A stretch of DNA of 64,000 nt from Escherichia phage 121Q, in sequence record NC_025447.1; one strand, 5' to 3'. Of the stretch, positions 6,851 through 42,158 are shown one piece after another (the first letter of the stretch is position 1; each line of letters begins with the position of its first letter). The position numbers and the translations under genes were made by a program. Below the pieces are notes generated by a model. That model searched no databases. It was not told the DNA's origin and worked only from the letters and a program-made list of their open reading frames with translations.

Positions 6851-9514
6851 ATGGCAGGAGATCTACTCTCACCTGGCGTTTCCATTTCAGTAACTGATGA
6901 AAGTATGAGTACCGCTGCTGCTCCTGGCACTGTACCACTATTTGTAATCGCTACTGCTGAAGACAAACTTGTCCCAGGAAGCAGTGCAATAGCTGCGGGA
7001 ACTACTAAAGCAAACGCTGGAAAACTACAGCTTCTAACATCACAAAAAAGTTCACTTGATACCTATGGTACACCAATTTTTCAAATGAATAACGGTTCTG
7101 TTGTTCAAGGTGATGAACTAAACGAATATGGCCTACATGCAGTATATTCTTATCTAGGCATTACTAACCGTGCATATGTAATTCGTGCTGATATCGATCT
7201 AGCACAACTAGCACCAAGTGCAGAAGCACCAACTGGCCCAGTATCCAATGGTACTTTGTGGTTTGATACCGCACAATCACAAGTAGAAGCGTATGTAGCG
7301 AAGAAAGATAGTCCAAGCAGTTTTTATGATTGGCAACTTAAGCCAGTAACTATTGTAAGTGCTGAAGAAGTTGAAGATGTAAGTCTAGTAGGTTTAAATG
7401 TTGATGATTTAGTTCTACGTTACAAACCAAGCAATGGTCAGATGCTAATGTATAAACGTTCTGCTTCTGGGCTAGTGCAAATGGAAACTTACCTATCACC
7501 AATTAACAAAGTTCCAGTTGGCTCAACTGTAGAAAAAGGTAACATTTGGATTCGTGATGGTTACACCCAAAATGGTTCAAACTATTTTGGTACTCGTTTT
7601 GTTATTAAACGTTATGCATCCCTAACTCAAGTTTGGAATATTGTACCAGCATATACTGGTAATTCATTCCAAGAAATTGAAGCGAAAAGTGGTGTACTAA
7701 ACAATAGTTATATCGCATCTCGTTTTGATGAAGATAGTAAGAGTTTCTCTTTCTATATTCAAAGTGCAAAACTAACAACAATTAGTGCTCCTGCTTTGCC
7801 ACTTGGTGAAACTATTATTGAACAAGCAGGTGCTGATAGTTATATGACTTTTGTTTATTTGAATAAATCAGTTAAAGTACTAGCAGTTCCACAAGGCGGT
7901 GTTATTAATACCCAAACTATCATCAATAATCTAAATGCAAATGCTGAAATTATTAACGATGGTTTTAAATTTAAACGTGAAACTAATGGTGGTTTAGTTG
8001 TTTCCAATACAAAAGGTTACAGTTTCAAAATCACACAAAGTGGTGATGATATTTTTGCTGAATCTGAACTACAAAAACTAACAGTAGATAGTAACAACTA
8101 CTCTCTAATTAACGTGAATAACTTCCGTGTTAGTTATTCAGTACCACGTAGTGTAGCAAAAGAAGGAACTCTCTGGTATGATTTCGGGAACTCCGATAAT
8201 CTAACTGTAACTATGTATGTTGCTGATGTTGCTAATGATGAATGGGATCTAGTACAAGAAGAAAACAAATATGTACAAGTTGATGAACCAGCGGCTGACC
8301 GTTTAATTTGGGTTTGTCCTTTATCCCAAGGCATTGATGGTTATGATTTCTATCGTAACGTTGATGGTGAATGGGTTAAACTTGACAGTACTGATCAAAG
8401 TACACTAAATGGTATGATTTTCCAAGACTTTAATTTCCCAAGCCAAGTTCCTGCTGCGGCATTGTATCAAAATGGTATGCTTGCAGTTGACCTAGGTAAC
8501 ACTGAAGGTGTTGTTAAGAAAATGGTTAATGGTCAATGGGAAGTTGTTAGTGGTGTAAGTCTTGATGGTGCTGGCCTATTTGGTCGTGCTGCACAACGTC
8601 AACTAGTAGTTGAAGCACTAGCTGCTGTTATTATTGGTAATGATGACATTCGTTCTGAATTTATTGATTTTAACCTAATTTGTGTACCTGGTTACGTTGA
8701 AACACTTGATGAATGTGTAACTTTAAACACTGATCGTAAAGAAACTGCATTTATTGTTACTGACGTTCCAGCACGTTTGAATCCAACTGGAAACGGTAGT
8801 GCTGTACAACAATGGGCTACTAATGCTAACAATGCACCAAGCAACGGTTCAGTTGGTCGTACAACTGCTTATGATTATGCTGCTCAGTATATGGGTTGGT
8901 GTCTAAGTACTAACGTTGATGGTGAAGAAGTTGCAGTTCCTGGTAGTACTATTGCAATGCGTACATATGCATACAGTGATAGTGTTAGTTATGTATGGTA
9001 TCCACCTGCTGGTACAACTCGTGGTGTTGTAACAAACGCTGCAAGTACTGGTTTTATCAACAGCGAAGGTGAATATCAACCAGTAGTATACAACCAAGGT
9101 CAACGTGACGTTATGTATACTAACAACATTAACCCAATTGCAATGCGTCCTAACCGTGGTTTGCTTGTTTATGGAGATAAAACTCTATCTGCTAATCAAA
9201 CTTCTGCACTAAGTCGTGTTAACGTTGCTCGTTTAGTTGTTTATATTCGTCGTCAACTAGAAATTATTTCCGAACCATTCCTATTCCGTTTGAATACTCC
9301 AAGTACTCGTCAGGAATTTAGTGGTGTAGTTAATAGCTTCTTGGCTGAAATTGTTCAACAACAGGGTCTTTATAACTTCGCAGTGGTTTGTGATGAAAGT
9401 AACAACACCGCAGAGCGTATTGACCGTAATGAACTTTGGATGGATATTGCAATTCAACCAACTAAGAGTATTAACTTCATTTACGTACCAATCCGTATCG
9501 AGAAAACTCAATAA
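6851..9514 (+). CDS. tail sheath protein (T4 gp18-like, enlarged to 887 aa)
   Basis: N-terminal LSPGVSISVTD and C-terminal RNELWMDIAIQPTKSINFIYVPI resemble T4 gp18 termini; strong terminator downstream. Confidence 0.85.
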   Translation: MAGDLLSPGVSISVTDESMSTAAAPGTVPLFVIATAEDKLVPGSSAIAAGTTKANAGKLQLLTSQKSSLDTYGTPIFQMNNGSVVQGDELNEYGLHAVYSYLGITNRAYVIRADIDLAQLAPSAEAPTGPVSNGTLWFDTAQSQVEAYVAKKDSPSSFYDWQLKPVTIVSAEEVEDVSLVGLNVDDLVLRYKPSNGQMLMYKRSASGLVQMETYLSPINKVPVGSTVEKGNIWIRDGYTQNGSNYFGTRFVIKRYASLTQVWNIVPAYTGNSFQEIEAKSGVLNNSYIASRFDEDSKSFSFYIQSAKLTTISAPALPLGETIIEQAGADSYMTFVYLNKSVKVLAVPQGGVINTQTIINNLNANAEIINDGFKFKRETNGGLVVSNTKGYSFKITQSGDDIFAESELQKLTVDSNNYSLINVNNFRVSYSVPRSVAKEGTLWYDFGNSDNLTVTMYVADVANDEWDLVQEENKYVQVDEPAADRLIWVCPLSQGIDGYDFYRNVDGEWVKLDSTDQSTLNGMIFQDFNFPSQVPAAALYQNGMLAVDLGNTEGVVKKMVNGQWEVVSGVSLDGAGLFGRAAQRQLVVEALAAVIIGNDDIRSEFIDFNLICVPGYVETLDECVTLNTDRKETAFIVTDVPARLNPTGNGSAVQQWATNANNAPSNGSVGRTTAYDYAAQYMGWCLSTNVDGEEVAVPGSTIAMRTYAYSDSVSYVWYPPAGTTRGVVTNAASTGFINSEGEYQPVVYNQGQRDVMYTNNINPIAMRPNRGLLVYGDKTLSANQTSALSRVNVARLVVYIRRQLEIISEPFLFRLNTPSTRQEFSGVVNSFLAEIVQQQGLYNFAVVCDESNNTAERIDRNELWMDIAIQPTKSINFIYVPIRIEKTQ

Positions 9515-22168: not shown

Positions 22169-22762
22169 ATGAAAAAGAATGAATTAGATGAAGCAATTAA
22201 AGGTTTATCTAATGTATGTTTTAGTGGCGGGGCAGCAGGTGCTGACCGCCTTTTTTCTATCTATGCAAAAAATAATGGATTTGAAGTTATTAATTTTTCA
22301 TTCAAAGGTCATGAGCATAGTGTAGATGAAAGTACTATATTAGAAATACCATCCAATATTCTATCTGATATTTCTATATTAAATCAACTAAACATTGCAT
22401 GTTACTCGTTGCAGCGAAAAGTACCAAAACCTGGTTCTTATGTTTACAACTTACTTGCAAGGAATAGTTATCAGATACTTAATACAGAAAGAATATATTG
22501 TATTGCAAATATCACATCACCAACTAAGGTAAGTGGTGGTACTGCATGGGCAGTACAGATGTATATGGATTCAGTTGAAAATCCTGAAATTTATTGTTAT
22601 GATATGAATTCACGTTCAGTATTTTATTTCGATACAGTACTGAAAGAGTTCACACAAACATTCGTCGTTCCAGCACCACATGGTAACTGGACTGGTATTG
22701 GTTCACGCAATGCCACCGAAAAACATATGGAACATTTTATTACATTTTTCAAGGAAGAATAA
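22169..22762 (+). CDS. Rossmann-like protein, possible SLOG (Smf/DprA-LOG) superfamily member
   Basis: CFSGGAAGADRLFS near N-terminus and later SGGTAWAVQ resemble the two glycine-rich SLOG motifs; stop overlaps td start. Confidence 0.4.
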   Translation: MKKNELDEAIKGLSNVCFSGGAAGADRLFSIYAKNNGFEVINFSFKGHEHSVDESTILEIPSNILSDISILNQLNIACYSLQRKVPKPGSYVYNLLARNSYQILNTERIYCIANITSPTKVSGGTAWAVQMYMDSVENPEIYCYDMNSRSVFYFDTVLKEFTQTFVVPAPHGNWTGIGSRNATEKHMEHFITFFKEE

Positions 22763-23691
22763 TGAAACAACTACAAGAACTATATCAAAAAATTCTAGAT
22801 GAAGGCGTAGAAAGCGTTGACCGTACTGGTGTTGGAACAATCAAACTTATCGGTCAACAAATGCGTTTTGACCTTAAAGATGGTTTCCCAGCAGTGACGA
22901 CAAAACGTCTAGCTTGGAAAGCAATGACTTCAGAATTACTATGGTTTATTGAAGGTTCCCATGATGAGCGTCGCCTTTGTGAAATTTTGCATGGAACTCG
23001 TGATACAGAAAAGAAAACTATTTGGACAGATAATTACCTAAATCAAGGCGTTGCTCTTGGTTATACTGATGGTGAGTTAGGTCCAGTGTATGGTAAGCAA
23101 TGGCGTGAATGGGAAGATTATAAATTTAGTTCCAGTACTGAAGAAATTCAAGAATTAAAAGATAAAGGATACAAAGTTATCGATTATACTGGTTCACATG
23201 GTGTTGTTATGAAACGTACAACTGACCAATTACAAGAACTAATCAAAGGTATAAAGTCCGATCCATATGGCCGTCGCCACATTCTAAGTGCATGGAACGT
23301 TGGTGAGCTTGATGATATGACGTTACCACCTTGTCATAGCTTTGTGCAATTTTGTGTAGTGCAAGGAAAACTAAGCTGTATTCTGCATCAACGCTCCGCT
23401 GATCTATTTTTAGGAGTTCCATTTAATATCAGTAGTTACTCACTACTAACTCATATGATTGCACAAATTACTGGTTTAGATGTTGGTGAATTTATTTGGA
23501 ATGGTGGTGATTGTCACATTTATAAAAACCACGTTGAACAAGTAAAAGAACAACTACAGCGAAAACCTCGTGAATTACCTGAATTGTGGCTTGATCCTAC
23601 AATTACTAATATTGAAGATTTCACTATGGATTCTTTTAAATTAGTGAATTACAACCCAATGCCAACAATTAAAGCACCTATGGCTGTATAA
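22762..23691 (+). CDS. td: thymidylate synthase (ThyA type, T4 td-like), uninterrupted
   Basis: DRTGVGT, KRLAWKA, catalytic LPPCH, QRSADLFLGVPFNISSYSLLTHMIA, GGDCHIYKNHVEQ; matches T4 td from memory. Confidence 0.9.
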   Translation: MKQLQELYQKILDEGVESVDRTGVGTIKLIGQQMRFDLKDGFPAVTTKRLAWKAMTSELLWFIEGSHDERRLCEILHGTRDTEKKTIWTDNYLNQGVALGYTDGELGPVYGKQWREWEDYKFSSSTEEIQELKDKGYKVIDYTGSHGVVMKRTTDQLQELIKGIKSDPYGRRHILSAWNVGELDDMTLPPCHSFVQFCVVQGKLSCILHQRSADLFLGVPFNISSYSLLTHMIAQITGLDVGEFIWNGGDCHIYKNHVEQVKEQLQRKPRELPELWLDPTITNIEDFTMDSFKLVNYNPMPTIKAPMAV

Positions 23692-37704: not shown

Positions 37705-38805
37705 ATGAGTGTTAACTATACAATTTATCGAAGTAATGGTAGTGTTTATGCTACCATTCCAAATAACGTTATTTTAGGTCCAAATCAGCCAGGTAGTAAC
37801 CCAGTTCCATTAAATTTAGTTGGTAGAAACAAAGTAAGTTATGGTCAAGCATGGAATGAAAACTTTTTACATTTAGTTGAAAACTTCAGTTCAGCTTCAG
37901 CACCACGTGGTAACGTAAATGGTCAACTTTGGTATCGAAATACTGGAAGTACTGGTGAGTTATTAATATCATTAGTGGATAATGCTAGACAACCAGCAGA
38001 TATGGTAAGTGAAGCGGAATGGGCTTCTATTCCAATGATAACCGTATTCAACACTGTACCAGATGGTGAAAACAGTGTTATGGGTCGTATGGTATTAACC
38101 AGCAATGGTGATTCACTTCGTGTTTTGATGAAAAACAAAGAATGGCGTGAAATTCAAACATCTCGACCAGAAAACAAAGAATATACATCATTATTAGATA
38201 TTAACTATGATAATGGAAAAAAATACATAGAGTTTACACAAAGTAACAGTACTAAACCAATTGCGTATTTTAACTTAGGCGGTACTTCACAAGTAGATAC
38301 AAATAACTGGACAACATTAACTAATGGTACTGGTGTATTTGAATTTGGTAGCAACTATTTCTATGAATTAAAAATTATGATTAGAGAAGTAAATGATTCT
38401 TCTGGTGAGATAGTTTCTCTTCCATATAATTCAAAAACCTTTTTTATAAAAGGGCAATTCTATGTAGATAATCAAGGAACTTTTGTTCCTGGTTCGGTTG
38501 GGGCAAGTCAAATGCCAGACCCACGTAGGATTACACAATTAGAATCCATAAAAGATGTTATTACCAGTAGTCGCCCAAACTGGGACGTAAATATTGTTAT
38601 TAATGGTGTAGATCCATCTATCCCAAATCCTAATGGAACATCTAAAGCTGATTATGAAAATTGGGTTATCAATTCTCTAAACTCAAATAAAAATTTAGGT
38701 TTTCGAGTTGATGGTAGCATTAGTAATCTAACTGCTGGTGAATCCGTTAAACTACAAGCATCCGTGTTGTTAAATATTACAGGTATTCCGATTATTGGAG
38801 TATAA
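37705..38805 (+). CDS. hypothetical protein (possibly fibre/baseplate associated)
   Basis: 366 aa ORF ending at a bidirectional terminator. Confidence 0.45.
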   Translation: MSVNYTIYRSNGSVYATIPNNVILGPNQPGSNPVPLNLVGRNKVSYGQAWNENFLHLVENFSSASAPRGNVNGQLWYRNTGSTGELLISLVDNARQPADMVSEAEWASIPMITVFNTVPDGENSVMGRMVLTSNGDSLRVLMKNKEWREIQTSRPENKEYTSLLDINYDNGKKYIEFTQSNSTKPIAYFNLGGTSQVDTNNWTTLTNGTGVFEFGSNYFYELKIMIREVNDSSGEIVSLPYNSKTFFIKGQFYVDNQGTFVPGSVGASQMPDPRRITQLESIKDVITSSRPNWDVNIVINGVDPSIPNPNGTSKADYENWVINSLNSNKNLGFRVDGSISNLTAGESVKLQASVLLNITGIPIIGV

Positions 38806-38836
38806 AAAAAGGAGCCATGTGGCTCCTTTTTGTTTT
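38804..38836. terminator. bidirectional terminator between convergent genes
   Basis: AAAAAGGAGCCA-tg-TGGCTCCTTTTT. Confidence 0.7.
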
Positions 38837-39299
38837 AATATCTATATGGTAAACTGTTGACAAACTGTGTACCTTCACGTATACTTTCCCATAGTGAGTA
38901 AAAATCTTTCATTAAGTTTGTGTTAAGTAAAGTATTTTTAGCACCAGGGTGTAATGGTTTAGGCCAAGAACCAATTCTAACCCAAGCATAACCAGAGCTT
39001 TCATGATTTAAAGTTGGTACAAATTCATTCTCAACTACAATAACAAATGAATAATATTTAAATTTACCATTTTTTGTACAAAATACATCAAACGGTATAA
39101 TATCAATAATGTTAGGTATTGAGTTGCCCAACTCTTCTTTAATTTCTCGCATCAGACCTTGTAGTGGTGTTTCGTTATGTTCAAGCTTTCCACCAACAAA
39201 TGCCCAGTTGTTAGAATAGGTACTTCTTTCAGAACGCAAGTTTAACATCATATGTCCAGTACTTTTTGATAAAAATATAGCACCAACCGCTTCATTCAT
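38835..39299 (-). CDS. Nudix hydrolase
   Basis: Nudix box GGKLEHNETPLQGLMREIKEELG; strong AGGAGG RBS. Confidence 0.75.
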   Translation of the reverse strand: MNEAVGAIFLSKSTGHMMLNLRSERSTYSNNWAFVGGKLEHNETPLQGLMREIKEELGNSIPNIIDIIPFDVFCTKNGKFKYYSFVIVVENEFVPTLNHESSGYAWVRIGSWPKPLHPGAKNTLLNTNLMKDFYSLWESIREGTQFVNSLPYRY

Positions 39300-39312
39300 A
39301 ACAACACCTCCT

Positions 39313-40656
39313 TTATTTGTCAGTGAAAGTTATTTTCCAATATCCCTGACGATACACAGGCATGATACTTTTATGCCATTTAAATTTGTCATTATATCTA
39401 TAATAACCATTGTCTTCTTTATTATAAATGTAATTTCGTACAGTAGATGGATCAATTAATTGTGCACCATCATTTGTAATTTTAAACAAATAATTTGATG
39501 GGATTTCGGTTTCTTTATAAATGATGTTATGTATACTGTTATTTACATAATATTGTTCAGGTAATGCACTTGAAAGTACTGAATCTTTCTGCACAAACCC
39601 ATGTATAGTGTAATCAACAGTATAATTGGTATTATCAAGCTGTACTATAATTTTGTTGGCATCTTCATTTTCACCATACGACGCTATATGACCTTTTAGT
39701 GGGTTGTCTTCTTCAATAGATTGTTGAAATTTAATCCCTACTTTTTTGTCATCAAAATTTGGTTCTAGATATTTAAGATATTTTTCCCATGAATATATTC
39801 CACCGTTGGGAGAAACCGCAGATAGCGATTGGCTAACCAAGGTAAGTTGGTATGTATCAGGTAAATTATACTTGGAATTAGTAATTTCTTCAACTTTAAT
39901 GCATAAATTCTTGGGTGTAAAAACATCTGTTATTATATCTGAATAATTTCCCATTTCAAAATCAAATTCGTCACGAGCACCTTTAATATTTGTAGTAATC
40001 TGTTGGATTAATTTTGGTTTTTCAACAATAGCTGGTAAAGAAAACCATATTGTCGTTTCAAATGTTAAAACCATTATATCCAAATCTGGGTCAGTTCCTT
40101 GTGGAAAACCACGAGTAGAAAACTGACAATCTATTAGTTCAACATCACTAAGCGATGTCCAATCTAACGGGTTATCAGATAATTGAAGTTGTATACTAGG
40201 TGCAAACAAAGTTGAGATTTGTTCGAATAATTCCATTTTAGTTTGAGTTTGAGTTACCCAAATATTCAAATCAAACGTAAAAGTCCAAGGTACTGGGTTA
40301 TGTCTTACAATTTTGTATTGTGTGTCAAGATCTTTTGTGTACTCATTAATAGCAGGGGACTTGTTAGACCCCATTACTATAGTTTCGTTGGCATTAGAAC
40401 GAATATTTTTACGATCCAACTTTAGTTGATTAACACTTATGGTCATTATAGGTGCTGATGGGAGAACATTTTCACTATTCCCATTTATAATTGCTGCTGC
40501 CATTCTTGAAATATCGGCATAGCGACATGGAACCTTTTTGTATTTTGGGTTTCCATTAGCATCAATACCATTTTGTACTTGAAATTCACCAAAAACTCTG
40601 ATAAGATGTTTCAGTACTCTGCGAAATTGACCGTCATAATAATAATCTATTTTCAT
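39313..40656 (-). CDS. hypothetical structural (baseplate?) protein
   Basis: 447 aa; start overlaps upstream stop by 4 nt. Confidence 0.45.
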   Translation of the reverse strand: MKIDYYYDGQFRRVLKHLIRVFGEFQVQNGIDANGNPKYKKVPCRYADISRMAAAIINGNSENVLPSAPIMTISVNQLKLDRKNIRSNANETIVMGSNKSPAINEYTKDLDTQYKIVRHNPVPWTFTFDLNIWVTQTQTKMELFEQISTLFAPSIQLQLSDNPLDWTSLSDVELIDCQFSTRGFPQGTDPDLDIMVLTFETTIWFSLPAIVEKPKLIQQITTNIKGARDEFDFEMGNYSDIITDVFTPKNLCIKVEEITNSKYNLPDTYQLTLVSQSLSAVSPNGGIYSWEKYLKYLEPNFDDKKVGIKFQQSIEEDNPLKGHIASYGENEDANKIIVQLDNTNYTVDYTIHGFVQKDSVLSSALPEQYYVNNSIHNIIYKETEIPSNYLFKITNDGAQLIDPSTVRNYIYNKEDNGYYRYNDKFKWHKSIMPVYRQGYWKITFTDK

Positions 40657-42158
40657 TCTGTGTCCTTATGTATGCGATAAACAGTATTAGGTTTAACTGC
40701 GTCATGTAATGGAACTTTGTTATCACTATTTACAAACTGTGTAAGTGCTAAGTCTGCACCTTCCCACGGTTTTCTTCCACCATAATCAAAAATAACCCAT
40801 GAATTCTTAGTTGCATTGAATTCCCATAACGTAACTGGAGTATAATCGGTGCGATAGAAATAGTCACCATCTACTGCATCAGTTGGGAACATATTTCCTT
40901 CAGGGACTGTACCTCGTGCTGGTGGAATTTTAGGACGATAATCTTGTTGCGAATCAATATTACCATATACACAATTGGACGTGAATGGTTCATTGACATA
41001 AGTTACCTTTGGTTCCCCCCACTTGTCATCATTATACTGATAAATGTGTGGTTCTTTATAAAAAATACAAAAATCTTCCACATCTTCTGGTGGAACATCA
41101 CTGGTAGTATATTCTACATCACAATTTAACCATTTTTTAGCACTTTTATCATATTGATACAACGTATAACCTGTCACATCTGCGTCATTTTCTTTAAAGA
41201 AGAAGTCACCATCCATTGGTTTTCTGGGAAAGATGGTTCCACGCTTGACTTCCACAGAAATCCATGTATCATTAACAAACTCTTTGAGTACTGGGTATGT
41301 TTTTTTCAAAAAATACATTCCATCGGCAGGTTCTTCTGGAAAATCATAACCGTTAAGCATATATTTTGATAAATCTACTGTATCAGGTCGATCATCATAC
41401 AAATGTTCATTTGTATAATGAATATAGGGTACTTCATCATCAGCTTGCATGATGATACGGTTCATGATATCCATTTCATTGCCATAGTTACTGTTTTCCG
41501 ACGAACCATCATCGGTATTTCCATTACCATTATTAGGGTCATCTGGATTATCAGGATAATTATTGTTACCGAGTAAATCGGAGTACTCAGGTGAGTCGGT
41601 TAGCGGTTTAACTCTAAGTTTATAAATGTGATGTTGCCACGTAACCGAGTATCCCTCAGATGTACGAAATGCATCTTGGACGACATAGAAGCGGTTTAGA
41701 CCTGTATCTTTACCCAATACATCAAAATCACGTAAATTTGGTAGTTCTATCACATCCCCTGGCATGATTTTTCTACCTAAACGCTGCATCATTGTATTAT
41801 AATGGATTGTGATGTCCATAGTGTTGAAATTAAAGAACAATCCTGGGATTTTCAAGTCTGGAGTTGCTTCTTGAACTTGATAGACACAACTAAGTGTGAT
41901 AGCTTCAAGGTTGTAGTTTCTGTTTGGTGTGTCACCAAAAATTAAATCGCCAATACTTGACACAACTGATCCTGAAGATGTATAATCACCTCCATAGGAT
42001 AAGTCAGTGTTGTCAGCAACTTGTTTTGGACCGACATATGCATAAAGCCACATGTCAACTCCACCAATGTTGTATTGTTCAGCAATGGCAGAATCAATGA
42101 ACTTGTAATCATTGGTTCTACCTTTTTTCCACATTCTATATGTCATGATTGTCTCCAA
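40653..42158 (-). CDS. hypothetical structural protein with three DG(D/M)(Y/F)F-type repeats
   Basis: P.DGMYFLKK, P.DGDFFFKE, A.DGDYFYRT motifs spaced through the protein. Confidence 0.45.
   Translation of the reverse strand: METIMTYRMWKKGRTNDYKFIDSAIAEQYNIGGVDMWLYAYVGPKQVADNTDLSYGGDYTSSGSVVSSIGDLIFGDTPNRNYNLEAITLSCVYQVQEATPDLKIPGLFFNFNTMDITIHYNTMMQRLGRKIMPGDVIELPNLRDFDVLGKDTGLNRFYVVQDAFRTSEGYSVTWQHHIYKLRVKPLTDSPEYSDLLGNNNYPDNPDDPNNGNGNTDDGSSENSNYGNEMDIMNRIIMQADDEVPYIHYTNEHLYDDRPDTVDLSKYMLNGYDFPEEPADGMYFLKKTYPVLKEFVNDTWISVEVKRGTIFPRKPMDGDFFFKENDADVTGYTLYQYDKSAKKWLNCDVEYTTSDVPPEDVEDFCIFYKEPHIYQYNDDKWGEPKVTYVNEPFTSNCVYGNIDSQQDYRPKIPPARGTVPEGNMFPTDAVDGDYFYRTDYTPVTLWEFNATKNSWVIFDYGGRKPWEGADLALTQFVNSDNKVPLHDAVKPNTVYRIHKDTE

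What the first reader, a model, noticed from the sequence alone, without database searches (positions are those of the whole stretch)
38835..39299. Second Nudix hydrolase inside the structural region
A clear Nudix box (GGKLEHNETPLQGLMREIKEELG) in a minus-strand gene with a strong AGGAGG RBS, flanked by structural genes and a bidirectional terminator. With the frameshifted Nudix at 2255-2687, the window encodes two divergent Nudix enzymes; phage Nudix proteins can hydrolyse ADP-ribose, NAD-derived or dinucleotide signals and may support counter-defence or nucleotide-pool control.
Basis: partly seen in the sequence, partly recalled or inferred. Interest (0 to 1): 0.35.

Follow-up and report, generated by a model that had tools for sequence, protein, structure and literature searches.

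The report
Known jumbo-phage MutT-like Nudix gene
The gene is a real, intact and strongly conserved Nudix hydrolase, but it is already annotated in this family of giant E. coli phages, is not part of the virus particle, and its substrate is still unknown.

Summary
ORF 38835-39299 (-) encodes a 154-aa single-domain Nudix hydrolase with a complete catalytic box. It has an AGGAGG ribosome-binding site, structural genes on both sides and a bidirectional terminator.

The window is an Asteriusvirus, a PBECO4/121Q-like jumbo coliphage related to RaK2. The protein is 100% identical to PBECO4 gp542, already annotated "MutT/NUDIX hydrolase" (PHROG 1198).

- **Selection:** purifying selection is very strong (dN/dS 0.02-0.05).
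- **Gene order:** the gene follows the gp15-like tail-sheath-stabiliser gene in all eight relatives examined, down to 43% identity.
- **Virion:** it is absent from the phAPEC6 and PA5oct virion proteomes, although its neighbours are present.
- **Nearest enzymes:** sequence and fold place it nearest the MutT/NudI/NudG (d)NTP pyrophosphohydrolases. No named enzyme family's cut-off is reached.
- **Distinctive feature:** a family-specific WPKPLHPGAK loop sits where MutT has its base-recognition loop.

My best reading is a non-virion nucleotide-pool enzyme; the substrate is inferred, not shown. Nothing supports a counter-defence role. Verdict: ordinary and already known.

More interesting in passing: the other Nudix (2255-2687) is a T4 NudE.1 homologue. 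It carries a genus-wide 1-nt insertion at a CGG codon, which may be a programmed +1 frameshift site.

The parts
38835..39299 (-). CDS, 154-aa single-domain Nudix hydrolase (same as PBECO4 gp542 and phAPEC6 gp249)
   Evidence: ORF. Pfam NUDIX 2.6e-15. PHROG 1198 4.6e-45. 100% identical protein in PBECO4 and 18 other records. AF2 model pLDDT 90.8 with Nudix fold. dN/dS 0.017-0.051.
39123..39191 (-). Nudix box G37-N59 (GKLEHNETPLQGLMREIKEELGN), the catalytic metal-binding helix
   Evidence: Regex hit. G37, E43, R51, E52, E55, E56 and G58 are invariant across the phage family.
38937..38966 (-). Family-specific loop W112-K121 (WPKPLHPGAK), at the place where E. coli MutT has its FPPAN base-recognition loop
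   Evidence: H117 and G119 invariant; P113, P115, L116 and A120 conserved in at least 90% of 37 sequences. Absent from the bacterial MutT-like outgroup. The MutT comparison rests on the MutT sequence recalled from memory.
39307..39312 (-). Shine-Dalgarno AGGAGG, 7 nt upstream of the ATG and directly after the upstream gene's TAA
   Evidence: Read from the sequence.
38806..38831 (.). Bidirectional intrinsic terminator shared with the convergent gene 37705-38805
   Evidence: Terminator scan. Folds at -16.2 and -16.7 kcal/mol, z -6.3 and -5.2, with U-tracts on both strands.
39313..40656 (-). Upstream gene of the same transcription unit: T4 gp15-like tail sheath stabiliser/completion protein (mislabelled 'tail sheath' in some records)
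   Evidence: PF16724 T4-gp15_tss 2.3e-20. PHROG 11196 and 227. Detected in the phAPEC6 virion as gp248.
40653..42146 (-). First gene of the leftward three-gene unit: virion structural protein (PHROG 11591)
   Evidence: PHROG 11591 5.6e-272. Start taken as the ATG used in PBECO4 gp540. Overlaps the next gene by 4 nt.
37705..38805 (+). Convergent virion structural protein that ends at the same terminator
   Evidence: PHROG 14394 8e-222. phAPEC6 gp250c, detected by virion MS with 40% coverage.

Best explanation
The ORF encodes a soluble, non-virion, Mg2+-dependent Nudix pyrophosphohydrolase. It belongs to a phage-specific subfamily found in RaK2-like jumbo phages and their uncultured relatives.

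It is the last gene of a leftward three-gene unit: virion structural protein, then gp15-like tail sheath stabiliser, then Nudix. It is translated from its own AGGAGG site, and the unit ends at a bidirectional terminator. It is therefore probably made together with late tail genes.

Its closest relatives by sequence and fold are the MutT/NudG/NudI branch, enzymes that cut (d)NTPs into (d)NMP and pyrophosphate. The most likely job is control of the nucleotide pool. That could mean removing a damaged or unwanted (d)NTP. It could also mean converting pyrimidine dNTPs (dCTP/dUTP) to monophosphates that feed the phage dCMP deaminase and thymidylate synthase. This is the step for which RaK2-like phages have no recognisable dUTPase or dCTPase, and the phage DNA is 35% G+C in a roughly 51% G+C host.

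Shown: the gene, the fold, the intact catalytic residues, strong purifying selection, conserved gene order and absence from virions. Inferred: substrate class, timing of expression and physiological role.
For: - Gene and motif.
- Catalytic residues E43, R51, E52, E55 and E56, plus E100, are invariant in 37-39 homologues.
- Fold: AF2 model pLDDT 90.8, pTM 0.85. Best Foldseek PDB matches are NudI (6dt3, 3oga, 3n77), MutT-like proteins, NUDT18, then RppH.
- A phage-only family profile against PDB ranks MutT 5x1x (1e-11), MutT 4v14, NudI, MutT 3hhj, NudG 2rrk, BdRppH, then Dcp2.
- NCBIfam best hits are a Nudix family hydrolase model (NF006530, the top hit), then MutT, the pyrimidine (d)NTP diphosphatase model, NudI and RppH.
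- The nearest cellular proteins in the 5.8-billion-protein search are 133-aa proteins that a source names '8-oxo-dGTP diphosphatase'.
- The family is mostly acidic (median pI 5.65), like MutT (5.0).
- dN/dS is 0.017 against BF17 and 0.051 against phage A4, at 86% and 81% nucleotide identity.
- Non-virion: phAPEC6 gp249 is missing from the virion MS table, which lists gp248, gp250c, gp251c and gp253. The PA5oct orthologue lacks the ESI-MS/MS note that its structural neighbours carry.
- Context: distant homologues (28-37% identity) in phiRSL1, BcepSauron and Motura lie within about 3 kb of a dCMP deaminase, and in phiRSL1 and Motura also near a topoisomerase.
- The RaK2 genome paper reports dTMP synthase and dCMP deaminase but no dUTPase or dCTPase (PMC3622015).
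- Window G+C is 32-39%. dNMP kinase and thymidylate synthase lie in the same mosaic region.
Against: - No enzyme assay exists for any member of the family.
- No NCBIfam equivalog cut-off is reached: MutT 36.8 bits against 148, NudI 31.8 against 95, the pyrimidine (d)NTP diphosphatase model 32.1 against 156. These matches cover mainly the first 60-70 residues.
- The substrate-side loop is family-specific, so the substrate could differ from that of every characterised relative.
- Foldseek TM-scores of 0.6-0.7 do not separate Nudix subfamilies.
- Late co-expression with tail genes is inferred from gene layout only. In the metagenomic loci L022 and L023, five opposite-strand genes separate gp15 from the Nudix gene, so co-transcription is not universal.
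- E. coli supplies its own Dut, Dcd and MutT, so the need for a phage copy is not obvious.
Confidence: 0.5

Rival explanations
1. It is an RNA 5'-end pyrophosphohydrolase or decapping enzyme, working like RppH, BdRppH or Dcp2. Made with late genes, it would convert 5'-triphosphate or capped ends to monophosphate and so trigger RNase E-dependent decay of host and early phage transcripts.
For: - The best single-sequence PDB hit is the RNA pyrophosphohydrolase BdRppH (3ees, 4e-7).
- Yeast Dcp2 aligns over almost the whole domain, including the C-terminal helix (residues 25-137, 6e-6).
- Weak Nudt16-like (PF22327) hits occur on the protein and on several family members.
- E. coli RppH is among the Foldseek matches.
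- The PA5oct study notes that the phage takeover of transcripts may reflect globally accelerated RNA decay (PMC7318152).
Against: - RppH NCBIfam models score 28 bits or less against cut-offs of 116-259.
- The family is mostly acidic (median pI 5.65). RNA-binding RppH is basic, as I recall it.
- BdRppH itself belongs to the MutT-like branch, so this hit does not discriminate.
- The Dcp2 similarity outside the Nudix box is faint.
- The window already has a NudE.1 homologue, whose T4 counterpart removes NAD caps in vitro.
Confidence: 0.2
2. It hydrolyses ADP-ribose, NAD-derived or dinucleotide signalling molecules. It would act as a counter-defence enzyme or in NAD/ADPr housekeeping.
For: - Iyer et al. 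(PMC7824862) cite the Motura protein QDH83582.1 as an example of a jumbo-phage Nudix that processes linear ADP-ribose. That protein is a 28%-identical homologue with an extra N-terminal region.
- The phiRSL1 homologue lies about 4.6 kb downstream of an NMN adenylyltransferase-Nudix gene and about 2.7 kb from pncB.
- JGI names one family member 'ADP-ribose pyrophosphatase YjhB'.
Against: - No ADP-ribose pyrophosphatase family appears among the NCBIfam, PDB-sequence or top Foldseek hits.
- The sequence lacks the downstream markers I recall from Dunn et al. 1999: no Pro or Tyr 15-17 residues after the box (C74, T75, K76) and no SQPWPFPXS array.
- In RaK2-like phages the gene is not linked to Macro, NADAR, SIR2 or NAD-salvage genes. 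It is linked to gp15.
- The NudE.1-type enzyme active on ADP-ribose, NAD and Ap3A is the other Nudix in the window.
Confidence: 0.12
3. It is a low-copy virion or tail-assembly factor that is functionally tied to the gp15-like tail completion protein.
For: The gene lies immediately or closely downstream of a gp15-like gene in 8 of 8 family contexts, down to 43% identity. Low-copy proteins can be missed by MS; the RaK2 paper makes this point for gp15 itself.
Against: - It is not detected in phAPEC6 or PA5oct virions, although its neighbours are.
- All catalytic residues are invariant, which points to an enzyme.
- In L022 and L023 the linkage is interrupted by five opposite-strand genes.
- No nucleotide-dependent step is known in tail completion.
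Confidence: 0.05

Closest known systems
PBECO4 gp542 (YP_009150856.1), phAPEC6 gp249 (QDF13878.1), SHEFM2K M2K_0537; PHROG 1198 'MutT/NUDIX hydrolase'
   Same: Identical protein (100%) at the same genomic position. Orthologues are 62-79% identical in K64-1 and other Klebsiella jumbo phages, CBB, Serratia BF, Yersinia fHe-Yen9-04, Erwinia, Xanthomonas and Vibrio jumbo phages, and 54% in PA5oct.
   Different: Nothing differs. This is the same gene. None of these proteins has been characterised biochemically, as far as the searched papers show.
MutT-type 8-oxo-(d)GTP diphosphatases (E. coli MutT 1mut, 5x1x, 4v14, 3hhj)
   Same: Same fold and length class. Shared W-x-F-x-G-G-K-x-E-x-x-E-T...RE-x-x-EE-x-G core. 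Best profile-to-PDB hits. Acidic pI.
   Different: Scores far below the MutT equivalog cut-offs (36.8 against 148, 35.2 against 97.9). The C-terminal base-recognition loop is replaced by the conserved WPKPLHPGAK motif. There is a longer C-terminal helix and tail.
NudI (YfaO) and NudG (ORF135) pyrimidine (d)NTP / CTP pyrophosphohydrolases
   Same: Top Foldseek matches (6dt3, 3oga, 3n77; E about 2e-9, TM 0.66-0.81, 27% identity) and a high profile hit (2rrk). Their activity would fill the dCTPase/dUTPase gap noted for RaK2.
   Different: Below the equivalog cut-offs (31.8 against 95; 32.1 against 156 for the pyrimidine (d)NTP diphosphatase model). Substrate is untested.
RNA 5' pyrophosphohydrolases and decapping Nudix enzymes (BdRppH 3ees, E. 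coli RppH, yeast Dcp2)
   Same: BdRppH is the best phmmer hit. Dcp2 aligns over residues 25-137.
   Different: No RppH model comes near its cut-off. The family is acidic. There is no regulatory domain of the kind Dcp2 has.
T4 NudE.1 (gene e.1), active on FAD, ADP-ribose, ApnA and NADH, with in vitro NAD-RNA decapping
   Same: It is a phage Nudix enzyme.
   Different: Only about 19% identity to the NudE-type sequence, and a different PHROG (1198, not 1185). The NudE.1 homologue in this window is the other gene, 2255-2687.

Membership tests
Nudix hydrolase superfamily (Pfam PF00293) | Nudix box GX5EX7REUXEEXGU with the metal-binding Glu residues | tested here: met
   G37-x5-E43-x7-R51-E52-I-K-E55-E56-L-G58-N59. 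Only the last U is Asn. All key residues are invariant in the family.
Nudix hydrolase superfamily (Pfam PF00293) | Profile score above the curated gathering threshold | tested here: met
   57 bits against 21.1, E=2.6e-15, residues 4-122.
Nudix hydrolase superfamily (Pfam PF00293) | Alpha/beta/alpha sandwich Nudix fold | tested here: met
   AF2 model pLDDT 90.8. 611 PDB matches at E<=0.001, and all 50 listed are Nudix proteins.
Nudix hydrolase superfamily (Pfam PF00293) | Hydrolysis of a nucleoside diphosphate linked to X | not testable with these tools
   Needs an enzyme assay.
PHROG 1198 (phage MutT/NUDIX hydrolase) | Full-length profile match | tested here: met
   E=4.6e-45, 155 bits, residues 1-153. 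SHEFM2K annotation also gives phrog=1198.
MutT, 8-oxo-dGTP diphosphatase (NCBIfam NF008044 / TIGR00586 equivalogs) | Score above the equivalog cut-off | tested here: not met
   36.8 bits against 148, and 35.2 against 97.9. The match covers only residues 4-63.
MutT, 8-oxo-dGTP diphosphatase | Base-recognition loop (FPPAN with Asn119 in E. coli MutT) | tested here: not met
   The corresponding segment is WPKPLHPGAK, conserved within the phage family and absent from the MutT-like outgroup. The MutT residues are recalled from memory.
MutT, 8-oxo-dGTP diphosphatase | Antimutator activity (complements mutT-) | not testable with these tools
   Needs a genetic assay.
NudI and the pyrimidine (d)NTP diphosphatase family (NF012016, NF007834) | Score above the equivalog cut-off | tested here: not met
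   31.8 bits against 95, and 32.1 against 156. Structural similarity is the best in PDB but not specific.
RppH RNA pyrophosphohydrolase (NF001934-NF001938) | Score above the equivalog cut-off | tested here: not met
   Best score 27.9 bits against 118.
ADP-ribose pyrophosphatase, ApnA hydrolase, NADH diphosphatase and CoA diphosphatase Nudix subfamilies | Subfamily markers of Dunn et al. 1999: Pro about 15-16 or Tyr about 16-18 residues after the box; SQPWPFPXS; the NuCoA motif upstream | tested here: not met
   Residues 74-77 are C, T, K and N. There is no SQPWPFPXS. The upstream segment LNLRSERSTYSNNWAFVGG does not fit LLTXR[SA]X3[RK]X3GX3FPGG. Read from the sequence; the rules are recalled from memory.
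T4 NudE.1 family (PHROG 1185) | Orthology to T4 gene e.1 | tested here: not met
   19% identity to the NudE-type sequence in alignment A3. PHROG 1185 scores only 22.7 bits.

The most novel reading that the evidence does not exclude
This phage-only Nudix subfamily has an invariant His117/Gly119 loop (WPKPLHPGAK) in place of MutT's base-recognition loop, is under extreme purifying selection, and has stayed next to the gp15 tail-completion gene across very divergent jumbo phages. It may therefore act on a substrate that none of its characterised relatives uses. One candidate is the 5' ends of host or early transcripts, which would make it a late-expressed phage RNA pyrophosphohydrolase or decapping enzyme. 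Another is a phage-specific modified nucleotide. Simple dNTP house-cleaning would then be the wrong reading.
Probability: 0.2. Interest if true: 0.45.

Novelty: already known. Interest (0 to 1): 0.15.

Why it matters
As a finding it adds little. The gene is already annotated in dozens of deposited Asteriusvirus and RaK2-like genomes.

It could matter modestly for jumbo-phage biology. This is one of the most conserved small non-structural genes of the clade (dN/dS about 0.02). RaK2-like phages have no recognised dUTPase or dCTPase, and nobody has tested this protein's substrate. Showing that it supplies dCMP/dUMP for an AT-rich genome, or that it acts on RNA ends, would fill a gap in how these phages handle nucleotides or transcripts.

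The possible +1 recoding site in the neighbouring NudE.1-like gene is potentially more valuable, and it is cheap to test.

Tried and rejected
- **Chance ORF or degenerate Nudix box.** Rejected: Pfam and PHROG E-values, invariant catalytic residues and dN/dS 0.02-0.05.
- **Virion component.** Rejected as the main reading: it is absent from the phAPEC6 MS table and lacks the PA5oct ESI-MS/MS note.
- **Assigning a substrate from structure.** Foldseek against PDB and BFVD gave only generic Nudix matches at TM 0.6-0.8.
- **Assigning it to a named enzyme family.** No NCBIfam cut-off was reached.
- **Per-gene expression timing from the PA5oct RNA-seq paper.** No supplementary tables are held, and the text gives no per-gene data.
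- **RaK2, CBB, phAPEC6 and fEgEco12 papers.** None mentions this Nudix gene.
- **T4-type late promoter TATAAATA upstream of the operon.** Not present. The motif occurs once in the window against 10.4 expected.
- **Fusion partner as a functional clue.** The Motura homologue has about 140 extra N-terminal residues, but Pfam finds no domain there.
- **Folate/baseplate idea (NudB-like).** Considered because thymidylate synthase appears in the phAPEC6 virion MS table. NudB is only a weak, non-specific hit, so I dropped it.

Full report
**1. The observation**

The ORF 38835-39299 on the minus strand exists and encodes 154 aa. The canonical Nudix box runs from G37 to N59 (GX5EX7REUXEEXG, followed by Asn instead of a hydrophobic residue).

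The match is far beyond chance:
- Pfam NUDIX E=2.6e-15, 57 bits against a cut-off of 21.1.
- PHROG 1198 'MutT/NUDIX hydrolase' E=4.6e-45 over the whole protein.
- A regex for the box over all six frames of the 64-kb window hits only twice, here and at 2346-2411.

The local signals are as described:
- AGGAGG lies 7 nt before the ATG, right after the TAA of the upstream gene.
- The hairpin 38806-38831 folds at -16.2 and -16.7 kcal/mol on the two strands (z -6.3 and -5.2). Each strand has a U-tract.

E43, R51, E52, E55 and E56 are invariant in 37-39 aligned homologues.

**2. What the window is**

The region is 97-99% identical in DNA to 19 Asteriusvirus genomes (SP27, SHEFM2K, phAPEC6, PBECO4 and others). 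These are roughly 350-kb jumbo coliphages related to RaK2.

The protein is 100% identical to PBECO4 gp542 (YP_009150856.1, 'MutT/NUDIX hydrolase'). The same gene is annotated that way in phAPEC6 (gp249), SHEFM2K and others. The gene and its family assignment are therefore already in the databases.

Orthologue identities:

| Phages | Identity |
|---|---|
| K64-1 and other Klebsiella jumbo phages, CBB, Serratia BF, Yersinia fHe-Yen9-04, Erwinia, Xanthomonas | 70-79% |
| A Vibrio jumbo phage | 62% |
| PA5oct | 54% |
| phiRSL1, BcepSauron, Motura | 28-37% |

In the 5.8-billion-protein collection there are about 80 clusters with E<1e-25. Nearly all are unnamed metagenomic proteins, some on contigs of 230-380 kb. 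Then there is a gap down to bacterial 133-aa proteins that a source names '8-oxo-dGTP diphosphatase' (E about 1e-7). This looks like a phage-confined subfamily.

**3. Anatomy and context**

The gene is the last of three co-oriented, tightly packed genes:
- a virion structural protein (40653-42146, PHROG 11591);
- a T4 gp15-like tail sheath stabiliser (39313-40656, PF16724 E=2.3e-20);
- the Nudix gene.

A virion structural gene converges on the same terminator.

The gp15-then-Nudix order holds in every family context I examined (8 of 8):
- this window, CBB, the Vibrio phage and PA5oct;
- metagenomic contigs carrying 58%, 48% and 43%-identical members.

In the 48% case, five small opposite-strand genes have been inserted between the two. 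Co-transcription is therefore not universal, and the linkage looks inherited rather than mechanistic.

The protein is not a detected virion component:
- The phAPEC6 ESI-MS/MS table lists gp248 (the gp15-like protein), gp250c, gp251c and gp253, but not gp249.
- In PA5oct the structural neighbours carry the 'ESI-MS/MS' note and the Nudix does not.

'Inside the structural region' is not odd for this phage. The same stretch also holds dNMP kinase (6130-6756, next to the true tail sheath at 6851-9514), thymidylate synthase (22762-23691), a phosphatase, a glutaredoxin and the other Nudix.

**4. Is it functional?**

Yes. Against BF17 the gene is 86% identical in DNA but has only 7.5 non-synonymous against 57.5 synonymous differences (dN/dS 0.017). 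Against phage A4, dN/dS is 0.051.

The AF2 model built with 39 sequences is confident (pLDDT 90.8, pTM 0.85) and has the Nudix sandwich.

**5. What does it do?**

Fold and profile comparisons agree on the neighbourhood but not on a substrate:
- Foldseek against PDB ranks NudI (6dt3, 3oga, 3n77) first, then MutT-like proteins, NUDT18, RppH, NudB and others. TM-scores are 0.6-0.8.
- A profile of the phage family alone ranks two MutT proteins, NudI, another MutT, NudG, BdRppH and then Dcp2.
- The NCBIfam order is a Nudix family hydrolase model (NF006530) first, then MutT, the pyrimidine (d)NTP diphosphatase model, NudI and RppH. All score far below the equivalog cut-offs and match mainly residues 4-70.

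So it works like a MutT-branch (d)NTP pyrophosphohydrolase, but it is not a member of any characterised enzyme family.

The C-terminal half carries a family-specific motif, W112-P-K-P-L-H117-P-G119-A-K121, with H117 and G119 invariant. It sits where E. coli MutT has its FPPAN base-recognition loop (MutT sequence recalled from memory). This suggests a defined but possibly different substrate.

The subfamily markers I recall from Dunn et al. 1999 for ADP-ribose, ApnA, NADH and CoA enzymes are all absent from the sequence.

The family is mostly acidic (median pI 5.65). That fits a small-molecule enzyme better than an RNA-binding one.

Three context clues fit nucleotide metabolism:
- The distant homologues in phiRSL1, BcepSauron and Motura all sit within about 3 kb of a dCMP deaminase. 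In phiRSL1 and Motura they also sit near a topoisomerase.
- The RaK2 paper notes dTMP synthase and dCMP deaminase but no dUTPase or dCTPase, leaving the dCMP-to-dTTP route 'unclear'.
- The phage is 32-39% G+C.

I therefore commit to a non-virion (d)NTP pyrophosphohydrolase for nucleotide-pool control, possibly the missing pyrimidine dNTPase. Confidence is about 0.5. Only the fold, the catalytic residues, the selection, the gene order and the non-virion status are shown.

**6. Rivals**

- **RNA 5'-end pyrophosphohydrolase or decapping enzyme (0.2).** BdRppH is the best phmmer hit, and Dcp2 aligns across residues 25-137 including the C-terminal helix. The acidic pI and the low RppH model scores argue against it.
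- **ADP-ribose/NAD-signal hydrolase or counter-defence (0.12).** Iyer et al. cite the Motura homologue in that role. No ADPRase-type similarity or linkage was found here. The enzyme type with those documented activities, T4 NudE.1, corresponds to the other Nudix in the window.
- **Tail-associated role (0.05).** This rests only on gene order and is contradicted by two virion proteomes.

**7. Novelty and score**

The finding is correct but ordinary. It is an already annotated, uncharacterised Nudix gene of a known phage genus. Interest is 0.15.

**8. Noticed in passing: the other Nudix (2255-2687)**

This side observation is more interesting than the target.

*What it is.* The gene at 2255-2687 is a homologue of T4 NudE.1: 36% identity to T4 and 41% to a T4-like Klebsiella phage.

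*The frame break.* Its first 21 codons (MRYSCGIIFYRDGQILIGHTT) are in one frame and the rest is in the +1 frame.
- In CBB, GAP32, Munch, Serratia BF, Yersinia, Erwinia and Xanthomonas relatives the gene is one continuous ORF. It matches the conceptually joined protein from residue 1 at 62-81% identity.
- In all Asteriusvirus records listed (about 35, at 83-100% protein identity), the match starts only at residues 13-22. The one exception is the UNVERIFIED CMSTMSU record.
- The DNA alignment shows a single extra base: ACA AC-T GGT in CBB against ACA ACA CGG A here.

*Evidence that the upstream segment is still translated.*
- Within Asteriusvirus, 5 of the 6 variable columns upstream of the junction are third positions of the upstream frame (binomial p about 0.02, my calculation).
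- That 21-residue segment differs from CBB by one amino acid despite 9 nucleotide differences.

*The codon at the junction.* The zero-frame codon there is CGG. It is used 0 times in 18,739 codons of the 37 long ORFs of the window.

*Reading.* This pattern fits a programmed +1 frameshift at a 'hungry' CGG codon. A tolerated ancestral frameshift mutation is not excluded. Annotators call only the 132-aa downstream ORF.

Noticed in passing
window 2255-2687 (+); junction about 2312-2324; upstream frame stops at TAA 2342-2344: The other Nudix gene is a T4 NudE.1 homologue split by a 1-nt insertion (ACA ACA CGG A against ACA AC-T GGT in CBB). Apart from the UNVERIFIED CMSTMSU record, every Asteriusvirus record listed shares the split, while other RaK2-like genera have one continuous ORF. 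Upstream of the junction, substitutions are synonymous in the upstream frame. This could be a programmed +1 frameshift; an old tolerated frameshift is not excluded.
   Followed up: partly
whole window (37 ORFs of at least 150 aa, 18,739 codons): The Arg codon CGG is never used in frame (0 of 18,739), and AGG is rare (10). By contrast CGT occurs 415 times. The only in-frame CGG noticed is at the frame junction of the NudE-like gene.
   Followed up: partly
L002 (PA5oct MK797984.1) 4992-5420: The annotated PA5oct 'MutT/NUDIX' CDS (EST35_0161, 105 aa) starts at a Met inside the Nudix box (GG-M-LENNE). Homology to the family starts about 110 nt upstream in the same open frame, with no ATG there. 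The deposited start is probably wrong, and a non-ATG start near the gp15 stop codon is likely.
   Followed up: partly
window 39313-40656 (-): Several GenBank records and PHROG 11196 call this gene 'tail sheath', and phAPEC6 calls it 'proximal tail protein'. Pfam identifies it as T4 gp15-like tail sheath stabiliser (PF16724). The real sheath gene is at 6851-9514.
   Followed up: yes
window 6130-6756 (+), 22169-22762 (+), 22762-23691 (+): Nucleotide and DNA metabolism genes are interspersed among the tail and baseplate genes: dNMP kinase, a DprA-like protein and thymidylate synthase. The thymidylate synthase orthologue (phAPEC6 gp259c) is listed among virion-associated proteins by MS.
   Followed up: no
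whole window: The T4-type late promoter octamer TATAAATA occurs once (59850-59857, minus strand), against 10.4 +/- 3.4 expected from shuffles. It is absent upstream of the structural operons I inspected.
   Followed up: no
L022 3834-5903 and L023 2235-4014 (metagenomic relatives): In these uncultured relatives a block of five or six small opposite-strand ORFs with no Pfam hits is inserted between the gp15-like gene and the Nudix gene. The otherwise universal adjacency is broken there.
   Followed up: no
L015 (Escherichia phage CMSTMSU MH494197.1, UNVERIFIED_ORG): This record carries extra single-base indels in the NudE-like gene region compared with its close relative BF17, and its gene calls are fragmented. 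These look like sequencing or assembly errors in that record, so it should not be used as evidence for or against the frameshift.
   Followed up: partly
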